Origin: a virus
Virus record (IMG/VR): IMGVR_UViG_3300028886_000153
Location: 1 to 45,385 of that record
Length of the DNA: 45,385 nt
Strand: one strand, 5' to 3'
The translations under genes and the position numbers were made by a program. Under the pieces are notes generated by a model, which had not been told where the DNA came from, made no database searches, and worked only from the letters and a program-made list of their open reading frames with translations. This document shows, piece after piece, positions 43,564 through 44,598 of the stretch. Position 1 is the stretch's first letter. The number at the start of each line of letters is the position of its first letter.

Positions 43564-44598
43564 GAACTATTCGCCCTAGTCTACTTTTCCCAGTTGCTAC
43601 TGGGGGTCTGCGCGAAGGGAAAAATTCCCGTCAATTTTTGGAAAGGCGCAGGCTAACGGGGAAGCCTAAAAATTTTATAAATTCATGGTAATCCCGTGGG
43701 AAAATCTGTTTAAACATCTAACTTCATTTTTCATATATCAGTGAGAAAAGGAGTTGATTGTATGAACGTTATTTATGCTTATAAAAAGAAAAGTATAGAT
43801 AAGATTGTTTATGTTGGTTAGACAAATAATTTAGAATATAGACATAAACAACATATTTATTATGATCCATTTAATATTAATAATCCAGAGTATGAATATC
43901 CTCTTAGTAGAGGAATTCGTAAATATGGCGAAGAAGAATATTAGTTAATTGTTTTAGAAGAAAATATTCCAGATGATAAAATAAATGAACGAGAAATTTA
44001 TTGGATAAAATATTATAATACATATTTTGATGGTTATAATCAATCTACTGGTGGCACTAGCCCAGTAAAACCAATATATACAGATGATGAAGTGAATTAG
44101 GTAATTGAAATGTTAAAAGATGAAAGTTATTCATTTAATGATATTTCAAAGAAAACAGGATTTTCGTTAACTCATATTTATAATATAAATACTGGAAAAA
44201 GGCGCCCACAGCCAAATATACAATATCCAATTCGTTCAAATAAAACAAAAGGGACAAAAGGATTAAAATTTTCTCCGGAAGAGTGTAAAAAAATTCACGA
44301 AGAAATATTAAAAAATGATAAAACATTAAAAGAACTTGGAGAAATGTTTAACTGTTCTTCTTCAACAATATCTGATATTATTAATGGAAAAACTTAGGCA
44401 TATAAATTAGAAGGTTATTCTTATCCATTAAGAAATAATCGTTCTATAGGGGCTAAATAGATGTGGAAAAACAGATAAACCTGTATCGACTATCCCGATA
44501 AAGGGAGTAGGAGTATTATTAGCACATACTCCGAAATAGTAGCAGTTTTAAAAACTGGAAGATATAGTCAGTGCCGTTGGAAACAATGGAATAACACG
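43564..44598 (+). mobile_element. group I intron (paralogous to the topoisomerase intron) in the primase Toprim motif, carrying a GIY-YIG HE
   Basis: shares TAACGGGGAAgCC..AATCCCGTGGG and AACCTGTATCGACTATCC..TAGTCAGTGC..GGAAACA..AACACG 3' core with intron 27852-28926; in-frame TAA at 43654; exon 2 restores the Toprim motifs. Confidence 0.7.
43762..44478 (+). CDS. intron-encoded GIY-YIG homing endonuclease (238 aa, 5 TAG)
   Basis: VIYAYKKKSIDKIVYVGQTNN..R..H; AAAAGGAG RBS. Confidence 0.7.

What the first reader, a model, noticed from the sequence alone, without database searches (positions are those of the whole stretch)
43564..44598. Second, paralogous group I intron with GIY-YIG HE inside the primase Toprim motif
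The primase frame stops at TAA 43654 right after ..IVFEG. Clean Toprim sequence (EKSCLL..CCGSS..AFDRQ) resumes 1035 nt later. The intervening DNA shares both the 5' core and the 3' core (AACCTGTATCGACTATCC ... TAGTCAGTGC..GGAAACA..AACACG) with the topoisomerase intron, and it encodes a related GIY-YIG HE. There are thus two copies of one intron lineage in two replication genes, and both HE ORFs are TAG-recoded. This intron family is therefore native to recoded phages.
Basis: partly seen in the sequence, partly recalled or inferred. Interest (0 to 1): 0.55.

Follow-up and report, generated by a model that had tools for sequence, protein, structure and literature searches.

The report
Mobile self-splicing intron splitting phage primase
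The phage's DNA primase gene is interrupted, exactly inside its catalytic motif, by a 1,035-base self-splicing (group I) intron that carries its own DNA-cutting "homing" enzyme; this is a well-known kind of selfish element, here in a phage that reads the TAG stop codon as glutamine.

Summary
Window 43564-44598 is a group I intron of 1,035 nt. It lies between primase codons ...IVFEG (last base T 43563) and EKSCLL... (first base G 44599).

Joining the exons gives a 368-aa primase. More than 100 uninterrupted homologues match it end to end, and the junction residues are invariant.

The intron has P1 with a U·G pair, P3, P4-P6, P6a, P7, P7.1, P7.2, P8, P9 with a GAAA loop, and a terminal G. It has no P2. 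Two hairpins lie between P3 and P4. Relatives show compensatory changes in P1, P3, P6a, P7.1, P7.2, P8 and P9.

A 238-aa GIY-YIG plus helix-turn-helix endonuclease ORF (43762-44478) sits in the P6a loop and holds five in-frame TAG codons.

- The primase and topoisomerase introns share only the core of a large family. At least 133 copies occur in 100 loci, and these two are among the least similar members.
- The family is not native to recoded phages. The same intron and endonuclease lineage occupies the same primase site in standard-code Enterococcus phages EF1 and EF5.

The intron is 97% identical to the copy in L018, while the flanking exons are 76-80% identical. That indicates recent mobility.

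This is a new member of a known kind. Recoded intron endonucleases have already been reported.

The parts
42793..43563 (+). Primase exon 1: 257 codons ending ...KAIVFEG. The last base, T 43563, is the U of the P1 U·G pair. TAG codons encode Q133 and Q172.
   Evidence: PHROG_47 DNA primase, 5e-30.
43564..44598 (+). Group I intron, 1,035 nt, IA-like (has P7.1 and P7.2, no P2). It ends in the terminal G at 44598.
43559..43577 (+). P1: exon AGGGT (43559-43563) pairs with the internal guide GCCCT (43573-43577). TTC 43570-43572 can pair with GAA 44599-44601 to form a 3-bp P10.
   Evidence: Sequence, and the MFE fold of the ORF-deleted intron. Compensatory changes occur in L056 (GAAGGT/GCCTT) and L064 (GAGGCT/GGCC).
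43581..43585 (+). P3 5' strand CTACT, which pairs with AGTAG at 44538-44542.
   Evidence: 33 distinct complementary strand pairs were listed across the family. Mean score is 9.7, against 7.4 ± 0.2 when partners are shuffled.
43589..43654 (+). Two hairpins between P3 and P4, provisionally P3.1 (CCCAGT/ACTGGG, 43589-43604) and P3.2 (43605-43613 with 43646-43654).
   Evidence: P3.1 is listed as an optional group I element in PMC3873408.
43656..43700 (+). P4 (43656-43661 with 43692-43697), P5 with a CCTAAA/CATGG receptor-like motif, and the start of P6 (GG).
   Evidence: The Rfam Intron_gpI alignment of the ORF-less relative L075 maps these elements. Also.
43704..43710 (+). P6a 5' strand ATCTGTT, which pairs with AACAGAT at 44470-44476 and closes the loop that holds the ORF.
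   Evidence: The helix covaries: L078 ATCTATT/AATAGAT, EF1 ATTAATGT/ACATTAAT, L056 TTATCT/AGATAA, L064 ATTTAC/GTAAAT.
43714..43761 (+). Local hairpin that sequesters the Shine-Dalgarno sequence AAGGAG (43748-43753) of the endonuclease ORF.
   Evidence: Fold energy -15.3 kcal/mol, z -3.4. Analogous hairpins occur in the topoisomerase intron (z -2.2) and the EF1 intron (z -4.5).
43762..44478 (+). Homing endonuclease ORF of 238 aa: N-terminal GIY-YIG domain and C-terminal helix-turn-helix. It has five in-frame TAG codons, and its TAA stop (44476-44478) overlaps the P6a 3' strand.
   Evidence: Pfam GIY-YIG 1.3e-5 and HTH_3 3.1e-5. phrog_7168 1.8e-32. I-TevI 1MK0, 8e-5. TAG alternates with Q in close homologues.
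44470..44598 (+). 3' ribozyme half: P6a' and P6' (44470-44481), J6/7, P7 GACTAT (44488-44493), P7.1 (44494-44505), P7.2 (44510-44532), P3' (44538-44542), P8 (44543-44557), P7' ATAGTC (44564-44569), P9 with GAAA loop (44574-44589), terminal G 44598.
   Evidence: Model R1 scores 113 bits here. Covariation is shown.
44599..44934 (+). Primase exon 2 (EKSCLL...KERVQ, stop TGA 44932-44934). It includes the Toprim AFDR(TAG=Q) motif.
27852..28926 (+). The other family member in the window: a group I intron in the GyrB-like topoisomerase, inserted at MSDADV|DGAHI. Its GIY-YIG ORF is 28062-28775 (2 TAG), and its P6a is 16 bp.
   Evidence: (107 bits).

Best explanation
Window 43564-44598 is a mobile group I self-splicing intron inserted in a DnaG-type primase gene, between the G and the second E of the Toprim motif FEG|EKS.

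**Inferred splicing steps**
1. The primase pre-mRNA folds into the ribozyme.
2. The last exon bases AGGGU pair with the internal guide GCCCU to form P1, with a U·G pair at the splice site.
3. An external guanosine bound in P7 attacks after U 43563.
4. The terminal G 44598 then occupies the same site, and the exons are ligated. The result is an uninterrupted 368-aa primase mRNA.

**Inferred mobility**
- The P6a loop carries an I-TevI-like endonuclease with a GIY-YIG nuclease domain and a helix-turn-helix DNA-binding domain.
- When this enzyme is made, it presumably cuts intron-less primase alleles of co-infecting relatives near the insertion site.
- Repair then copies the intron into the cut allele (homing).

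**Inferred control of endonuclease synthesis**
- A hairpin hides the ribosome-binding site of the ORF.
- Five TAG codons can be read as glutamine only once the phage's TAG suppression is active.

**Shown here**
- The exon junction, the ribozyme architecture with covariation, the endonuclease domains, TAG = Gln, the sporadic distribution, and the identity contrast between intron and exons.

**Inferred, not shown**
- Catalysis, the cleavage site, and the timing of endonuclease expression.
For: **Junction**
- The spliced product is 368 aa. Among the 120 best of 4,466 database hits, most are uninterrupted proteins of 366-370 aa at 65-94% identity with 99-100% coverage.
- E256, E258, K259 and S260 are invariant across the junction.
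- The motif aligns to the EG..D Toprim motif of solved DnaG structures.

**Ribozyme**
- An ORF-less family member that carries the same 18-mer matches Rfam Intron_gpI at 60 bits against a cut-off of 50, E 1.6e-12.
- MFE folds of six ORF-deleted primase-site introns return P1, P3.1, P3.2, P4-P6, P7.1, P7.2, P8 and P9. Three of them also return P7.
- In the MAFFT alignment of 41 3' halves, P7.2 is 99.7% paired with 7 of 7 pairs covarying. P9 is 96.7% paired with 6 of 6 covarying. No shuffle of 500 reached the observed score.
- In the alignment of 128 distinct copies, 97.4% of cells are paired, against 37-43% when partners are slid.
- P1, P3 and P6a show compensatory changes among primase-site introns.

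**Endonuclease**

**Mobility**
- Compared with L018, the intron is 96.8% identical while exon 1 is 80.4% and exon 2 is 75.9% identical.
- Only 2 of 80 primase loci in IMG/VR carry the intron.
- Five of the six intron-bearing alleles with exon 1 available end in TTTGAGGGT. The other two (L056, L064) have a different last hexamer, each matched by a compensating change in the guide. Only 2 of 74 intron-less alleles have TTTGAGGGT.

**TAG = Gln**
- TAG aligns to Gln at primase positions 133, 172 and 306 and in the GIY-YIG motif YVG(TAG)T versus YIGQT.
Against: - The window itself gives no Rfam hit, either at gathering threshold or at E ≤ 10 over 43400-44750. The likely reason is the 0.77-kb ORF in P6a, but a direct full-length model match for this copy is lacking.
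- Pfam finds no Toprim or primase domain in the spliced protein at E ≤ 0.01. The matches to solved DnaG structures are weak (E 0.002-0.07).
- P3 is only 5 bp, and P10 only 3 bp.
- There are no expression or splicing data.
- No suppressor tRNA lies in the window.
- The covariation alignment A6 was fitted to the model that was built from the family itself.
Confidence: 0.9

Rival explanations
1. The primase gene is split. A free-standing endonuclease gene landed between two halves that are translated separately and reassemble, as in some phage genes split by homing endonucleases. No RNA splicing occurs.
For: - GenBank annotates the homologous EF1 locus as three separate 'hypothetical proteins'.
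- A TTG at 44611 could start a 44-aa ORF in exon 2.
- The window contains several free-standing endonuclease-like ORFs.
Against: - About 320 nt of non-ORF insert fold into a complete group I core. Its helices covary, including P1, which pairs with the exon.
- Exon 2 has no ATG start. Only the end of the intron lies upstream of it.
- The break falls inside the FEG|EKS Toprim motif, and removing the insert restores it without any indel.
Confidence: 0.04
2. The insert is a decayed intron remnant that no longer splices. The primase is then a pseudogene, and another primase does the work.
For: - The window gives no Rfam hit.
- P3 and P10 are short.
- The endonuclease reads as five stops under the standard code.
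Against: - All core helices are intact. The only difference from L018 in P9 is an A-to-G change that keeps pairing as G·U.
- The endonuclease ORF is intact under TAG = Gln and is 98% identical to the L018 copy.
- The exons keep every invariant residue of the family.
- The intron is far better conserved than the exons, which is the opposite of decay.
Confidence: 0.04
3. One reading: the primase and topoisomerase introns are recent paralogues from duplication within this genome, and they belong to a family specific to TAG-recoded phages.
For: - The two share an exact 18-mer and 5' core motifs.
- Both endonucleases are GIY-YIG proteins with TAG codons.
Against: - The 18-mer is a family-wide core found in more than 116 IMG/VR contigs.
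- The two copies are among the least similar family members.
- Each has closer relatives at the same gene site in other phages.
- The primase-site lineage occurs in the standard-code Enterococcus phages EF1 and EF5.
Confidence: 0.03

Closest known systems
Phage T4 td intron with I-TevI (group IA2 intron, GIY-YIG homing endonuclease)
   Same: - The endonuclease ORF is looped out of P6a.
- P7.1 and P7.2 are present.
- The GIY-YIG domain matches the I-TevI catalytic domain 1MK0/1LN0 at E 8e-5.
- The endonuclease has a C-terminal helix-turn-helix.
- The host is a DNA-metabolism gene, interrupted in a conserved motif.
- From my own knowledge of T4, not tested here: I-TevI translation is also limited by a hairpin over its ribosome-binding site. 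A comparable hairpin is predicted here.
   Different: - The host gene is a primase, not thymidylate synthase.
- There is no P2. Instead, two hairpins lie between the P3 5' strand and P4.
- The endonuclease contains five sense TAG codons.
- There is no detectable similarity to I-TevI outside the catalytic domain.
Unannotated primase intron of Enterococcus phages EF1 and EF5 (MF001358, MF001361)
   Same: - The insertion site is the same (KAIVFEG|EKS), and the last nine exon bases are the same (TTTGAGGGT).
- The ribozyme has the same architecture.
- The endonuclease is 44% identical over 94% of its length.
   Different: - EF1 uses the standard code, and its endonuclease has no TAG codons.
- The host primase is distantly related.
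- P3, P6a, P7.1, P7.2, P8 and P9 differ in sequence but all keep their pairing.
- GenBank annotates the locus as three hypothetical proteins.
Recoded group I intron endonuclease of TGA-recoded 'Agate' phages (Borges et al., bioRxiv 10.1101/2021.08.26.457843)
   Same: - It is an intron-encoded endonuclease in an early gene of a stop-codon-recoded gut phage.
- The endonuclease is preferentially recoded.
- The authors propose that in-frame stops delay endonuclease production until late infection.
- The same enrichment is seen here. TAG makes up 0.56 of Gln-type codons in the primase-intron endonuclease, against 0-0.18 in core genes.
   Different: - That case is TGA = Trp; this one is TAG = Gln.
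- The host gene and intron family of the Agate case are not given in the text I read, so homology was not tested.
Rfam RF00028 Intron_gpI
   Same: The ORF-less family member L075 passes the gathering score (60 bits against 50). P4-P6, P8 and P9 align to the model.
   Different: - The window copy is not detected.
- The generic model placed P1, P2 and P3 of L075 where covariation does not support them. The covarying P3 5' strand lies upstream of two hairpins.

Membership tests
Group I self-splicing intron | 5' exon ends in U, which forms a U·G wobble with an internal guide sequence (P1) | tested here: met
   - T 43563 pairs with G 43573.
- AGGGU pairs with GCCCU.
- Compensatory exon and guide changes occur in L056 and L064.
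Group I self-splicing intron | Intron ends in G (terminal guanosine), directly before exon 2 | tested here: met
   - G 44598.
- All the primase-site introns examined end in G (CG, TG or GG) before GA(A/G)AA.
Group I self-splicing intron | Conserved core helices P3-P9, including the P3/P7 pseudoknot, supported by covariation | tested here: met
   - P7 is essentially invariant (3 of its 6 pairs never vary; 98.8% of cells paired).
- P7.1, P7.2, P8 and P9 covary.
- P3 covaries, and so does P6a.
- P4 and P5 are supported.
Group I self-splicing intron | Match to the curated covariance model (Rfam RF00028) above gathering score | tested here: inconclusive
   - The window copy has no hit.
- The ORF-less relative L075 scores 60 bits against a cut-off of 50.
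- An ORF-deleted copy could not be submitted to the tool.
Group I self-splicing intron | Removal restores an intact host reading frame | tested here: met
Group I self-splicing intron | Guanosine-dependent self-splicing | not testable with these tools
   This needs in vitro transcription and splicing, or RNA-seq.
GIY-YIG homing endonuclease (I-TevI-like) | GIY-YIG catalytic domain above the curated threshold | tested here: met
   - PF01541 scores 25.8 bits against a cut-off of 22.6.
- I-TevI 1MK0 matches at E 8e-5.
- phrog_7168 matches at 1.8e-32.
GIY-YIG homing endonuclease (I-TevI-like) | Separate C-terminal DNA-binding domain | tested here: met
   HTH_3 (PF01381) scores 24.4 bits against a cut-off of 23, at residues 180-212.
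GIY-YIG homing endonuclease (I-TevI-like) | Cleaves the intron-less allele and promotes homing | not testable with these tools
   Indirect support only:
- The intron is 96.8% identical to the L018 copy, while the exons are 76-80% identical.
- Only 2 of 80 primase loci carry it.
DnaG-type (Toprim) primase | Toprim domain with conserved Glu and Asp motifs | tested here: inconclusive
   - No Pfam family is found at E ≤ 0.01.
- PHROG_47 'DNA primase' matches at 5e-30.
- The family profile hits the DnaG structures 5GUJ (0.0023), 4E2K (0.015) and 2AU3 (0.074), with FEG aligned to the Toprim EG motif.
TAG-to-Gln recoded phage (genetic code 15) | In-frame TAG in conserved genes at positions that are Gln in homologues | tested here: met
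   - Primase Q133, Q172 and Q306.
- Endonuclease YVG(TAG)T against YIGQT, with TAG and CAA/CAG alternating among close relatives.
TAG-to-Gln recoded phage (genetic code 15) | Phage-encoded suppressor tRNA(CUA) | tested here: not met
   No tRNA is found in this 45-kb window. The rest of the genome was not available.

The most novel reading that the evidence does not exclude
The same intron and endonuclease lineage sits at the same primase site in a standard-code Enterococcus phage (0 TAG) and in TAG-recoded gut phages (3, 5 and 6 TAG).

This suggests that such introns cross genetic-code boundaries in one direction only:
1. A standard-code copy can home into a recoded phage.
2. Once there, its Gln codons drift to TAG.
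3. The copy is then locked into recoded hosts.
4. Translation of its endonuclease becomes gated by the phage's late code switch, which acts together with the hairpin over the ribosome-binding site.

Stop-codon recoding would then act as a containment and timing device for selfish endonucleases. All six other endonuclease-like ORFs in the window are likewise TAG-rich.
Probability: 0.3. Interest if true: 0.55.

Novelty: new member of a known kind. Interest (0 to 1): 0.35.

Why it matters
**Annotation**
- Gene callers will report this primase as two fragments plus an endonuclease that itself looks fragmented.
- The same happens, unannotated, in GenBank for the cultured Enterococcus phages EF1 and EF5.
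- Recognising the intron restores an essential replication gene.

**Biology**
- The case adds a primase Toprim site to the list of catalytic motifs targeted by phage group I introns.
- It documents a very prolific intron family in gut phages: 133 copies in 100 loci, and up to five within 14 kb.
- It gives a TAG=Gln counterpart to the TGA-recoded intron endonuclease of Agate phages.
- It offers a pair of closely related elements on either side of a genetic-code boundary. That pair could be used to test whether recoding controls selfish-element expression.

None of this overturns current understanding.

Tried and rejected
- **Rfam on the window.** The whole window at gathering threshold and 43400-44750 at E ≤ 10 gave no group I hit. 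The only matches were chance ones (STnc420, DLEU2_4). This was resolved by finding ORF-less relatives.
- **First P3 assignment.** I first paired GCUA, just before P4, with UAGU/UGGU. This was also roughly where the Rfam alignment of L075 placed P3. I rejected it because GCUA is invariant while its supposed partner varies without compensation. The covarying partner is the strand upstream of the two hairpins.
- **A third copy in the window.** Model R1 with filters off found only the two known copies. The next best hit scores 15.8 bits and lies inside the endonuclease ORF.
- **tRNA scan.** Run to look for a suppressor tRNA; none is in the window.
- **Promoter scan.** Run to look for an internal promoter for the endonuclease. 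Matches were no more frequent than in shuffles (9 against 13 ± 3.8).
- **blastn against GenBank phages.** Only Enterococcus phages EF1, EF5 and VRE9_3 matched.
- **Literature.** I found no description of a primase group I intron in the searchable library.
- **L194.** It looked like an interrupted primase in IMG/VR but is intron-less at this site.
- **Other element types.** An intein or a group II intron was considered. Both are excluded, because the insert is not in frame with the exons and it has a group I core.
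Full report
**1. Observation**

The primase reading frame starts at ATG 42793 and reads ...PKMRKAIVFEG up to base 43563. It then continues for 30 codons into unrelated sequence and stops at TAA 43654-43656. At 44599 the same frame resumes with EKSCLLYQTYFGFENDISVACCGSSLSSYQTQLLIDAGAQEIIVAFDR(TAG)FQNVGDDE... and runs to TGA 44932-44934.

The motif AACCTGTATCGACTATCC occurs exactly twice in the window, at 28775 and 44478. Chance expectation is 0.01. The 5' and 3' flanks of both inserts share further blocks.

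**2. The exon junction is real**

Joining 42793-43563 to 44599-44934 gives a 368-aa protein. A search of 5.8 billion proteins returned 4,466 relatives. Among the best 120, most are uninterrupted proteins of 366-370 aa at 65-94% identity with 99-100% coverage.

In a 13-sequence alignment there is no indel at the junction. E256, E258, K259 and S260 are invariant, and G257 is nearly so.

The protein matches PHROG_47 'DNA primase' at 5e-30. Pfam finds nothing at E ≤ 0.01. A profile of the family does hit the catalytic cores of solved DnaG primases: 5GUJ at E 0.0023, 4E2K at 0.015 and 2AU3 at 0.074. In those alignments ..aivFEGeksvl.. lines up with ..AVLFEGFADVI.. and ..IVLLEGFMDVI.., which is the Toprim glutamate motif. 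AFDR lines up with the Toprim aspartate motif. The insert therefore sits inside the Toprim motif, as claimed.

The three TAG codons of the primase fall at positions that are Gln in the homologues. Q306 is invariant and Q133 nearly so. TAG is therefore read as glutamine.

**3. The insert is a group I intron**

*Rfam.* Rfam finds nothing in the window. This is expected for a core interrupted by a 0.77-kb ORF.

The shared 18-mer occurs in more than 116 IMG/VR contigs. Ten of those copies lack an ORF. One of them, L075 5395-5632, matches Rfam Intron_gpI at 60 bits against a cut-off of 50, E 1.6e-12. That alignment identifies the shared blocks as P4-P5-P4', P6, J6/7-P7, P8, J8/7-P7' and P9.

*Helices in the window copy.*
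- P1: exon AGGGU (43559-43563) pairs with guide GCCCU (43573-43577), with the canonical U·G pair at the splice site.
- P10: a possible 3-bp helix, UUC with GAA.
- P3: CUACU (43581-43585) pairs with AGUAG (44538-44542).
- Two hairpins lie between P3 and P4 (43589-43604 and 43605-43654).
- P4: 43656-43661 pairs with 43692-43697.
- P5 carries a CCUAAA/CAUGG receptor-like motif.
- P6 and P6a: AUCUGUU (43704-43710) pairs with AACAGAU (44470-44476).
- P7: GACUAU (44488-44493) pairs with AUAGUC (44564-44569).
- P7.1, P7.2 and P8 follow.
- P9 has a GAAA tetraloop (44574-44589).
- The terminal G is 44598.

Minimum-energy folds of six ORF-deleted primase-site introns reproduce these helices without any constraint.

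*Subgroup.* P7.1 and P7.2 place the intron in subgroup IA. There is no P2. The hairpins after P3 are provisionally called P3.1 and P3.2. P3.1 is listed as an optional group I element in PMC3873408.

*Covariation.*
- In a MAFFT alignment of 41 3' halves, P7.2 is 99.7% paired with compensatory changes in 7 of 7 pairs. P9 is 96.7% paired with changes in 6 of 6. No shuffle of 500 reached the observed score, and sliding the partners drops pairing from 91.5% to 34-42%.
- A covariance model built on that alignment finds 133 copies in 100 loci. In the resulting alignment of 128 distinct copies, 97.4% of cells are paired and P8 also covaries. The caveat is that this alignment is fitted to the model.
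- P1 changes together with the exon. L056 has GAAGGU with GCCUU, and L064 has GAGGCU with GGCC.
- P6a has five different complementary sequences in five primase-site introns.
- P3 shows 33 distinct complementary strand pairs. Its mean score is 9.7, against 7.4 ± 0.2 for shuffled partners.

I first assigned P3 to the invariant GCUA next to P4. I rejected that assignment because its supposed partner varies without compensation.

**4. The ORF**

The ORF at 43762-44478 encodes 238 aa if TAG is read through. Domain matches:
- Pfam GIY-YIG at residues 3-93 (25.8 bits against 22.6).
- HTH_3 at residues 180-212 (24.4 bits against 23).
- phrog_7168 'homing endonuclease' at 1.8e-32.
- The I-TevI catalytic domain 1MK0/1LN0 at 8e-5.

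The stop codon lies inside the 3' strand of P6a.

A hairpin of -15.3 kcal/mol (z -3.4) pairs the Shine-Dalgarno AAGGAG. Equivalent hairpins exist in the topoisomerase intron and in the EF1 intron.

The five TAG codons alternate with CAA/CAG in the closest homologues. One example is YVG(TAG)T here against YVGQT in L078 and YIGQT in EF1. Conversely, L078 has TAG where the window has CAA or CAG.

TAG makes up 0.56 of Gln-type codons in this ORF. In the primase exons it is 0.18, and in gyrase A, ligase and DnaB it is 0.

**5. Mobility**

*Identity contrast.* Against the copy in L018, the intron is 96.8% identical while exon 1 is 80.4% and exon 2 is 75.9% identical. The upstream 1.5 kb is 74% identical. 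The tracts of exon identity next to the intron are only 13-14 nt long.

*Distribution.* Of 80 primase loci recovered from IMG/VR, only two (L145 and L146) carry the intron. L145 lies on the same contig as L018.

*Exon context.*
- Five of the six intron-bearing alleles with exon 1 available, from very different phages, end exon 1 in TTTGAGGGT. L056 and L064 differ, each with a compensating guide change.
- The 74 intron-less alleles use 13 different versions of those nine bases, and only two have TTTGAGGGT.
- The nearest intron-less allele, L121, differs from the window at three synonymous positions within the last ten exon bases.

These are the expected signatures of homing with co-conversion, and of the P1 pairing requirement.

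**6.

*The two introns are not close paralogues.* Their endonucleases share 30% identity over 102 residues. Their 3' halves share 50% identity. In that 41-sequence alignment (40 comparison sequences), the topoisomerase intron is the least similar of the 40 to the primase intron.

Endonuclease similarity follows the insertion site, not the genome:
- The primase-site enzymes of L018, L078, L056, EF1 and L064 are 98, 79, 49, 44 and 39% identical to the window's.
- The topoisomerase-site enzyme is 58-72% identical to those at the same DV|DG site in other phages.

*The family is not confined to recoded phages.* The Enterococcus faecalis phages EF1 and EF5 use the standard code. They carry the same intron at KAIVFEG|EKSVMK with a TAG-free endonuclease, and the locus is annotated there as three hypothetical proteins. 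Many other family endonucleases have no TAG.

**7. Comparison with what is known**

The element works like the T4 td intron with I-TevI. It has an IA-type ribozyme and a GIY-YIG endonuclease in P6a, and it sits in a DNA-metabolism gene at a conserved motif.

Recoded intron endonucleases have already been described. Borges et al. (bioRxiv 10.1101/2021.08.26.457843) report a group I intron endonuclease in an early gene of TGA-recoded Agate phages. It is preferentially recoded, and they propose that in-frame stops delay its synthesis.

The present case is a TAG=Gln counterpart in a primase. I found no description of a primase group I intron in the searchable literature. The phenomenon is nonetheless ordinary for phage biology.

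**8. Verdict**

- It is wrong on paralogy and on the family being native to recoded phages.
- This is a new member of a known kind, of moderate-to-low interest.
- The most novel reading still open is that such introns cross genetic-code boundaries one way and become gated by the code switch. That rests on inference only.

Noticed in passing
window 1097-1810 (+), 4252-4980 (-), 8619-9521 (+), 37439-38356 (+): Four paralogous ORFs carry repeated 'YW.C.CDCGN' cysteine modules and a C-terminal 'FDF..IE.DG.(TAG)H' nuclease-like motif. The conserved Gln of that motif is a TAG in all four. Each has 5-8 in-frame TAG codons and no Pfam match. They are probably free-standing homing endonucleases.
   Followed up: partly
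window 25566-26342 (+) and 34885-35913 (+): Two further GIY-YIG ORFs are present. The first is free-standing, lies just upstream of the topoisomerase gene, and has an I-HmuI NUMOD-like domain. The second is fused to a long coiled-coil and transmembrane N-terminus. Each has 7 in-frame TAG codons.
   Followed up: partly
window 1797-4229 (+) and 17172-18665 (+): These ORFs encode a Major Vault Protein-like protein (MVP_shoulder 1.2e-20, Vault_3 2.4e-9) and an SPFH/flotillin-like protein. Both lie in 45-49% GC islands within a genome segment of about 30-35% GC. Both lack TAG and prefer CAG. Long mirror ORFs occur on the opposite strand.
   Followed up: no
window 966-1030, 5040-5104, 6275-6339, 10948-11012, 15297-15361, 25433-25497, 36942-37006, 40412-40476: Eight to eleven copies of a long, highly conserved promoter-like motif (TTGATTTTTATAAAAAATATATTATAATATATATAG) occur upstream of gene blocks.
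   Followed up: no
loci L010, L088, L090, L085, L102: The same intron family occurs three to five times within single 9-14-kb stretches of other phage contigs. In all, 133 copies were found in 100 loci. Some gut phage genomes are therefore extremely intron-dense.
   Followed up: partly
L117 (Enterococcus phage EF1, MF001358.1 137583-141996): GenBank annotates the primase as two 'hypothetical proteins' flanking a third, which is the endonuclease. This is an unrecognised group I intron at the same Toprim site.
   Followed up: yes
window 27852-28926: The topoisomerase intron also sits in a Toprim motif, the GyrB DxD motif (IIMSDADV|DGAHI). Its P6a is a perfect 16-bp helix (CAAATATTTATCCATT with AATGGATAAATATTTG) that covers the last six codons of the endonuclease ORF. 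That helix covaries with L069, L005 and L027.
   Followed up: partly
window 43654-43656: The stop codon that ends read-through from exon 1 is the TAA inside the family-invariant GCTAACGG motif, just before P4. It is not in frame in the other primase-site introns, so this is probably a coincidence.
   Followed up: partly
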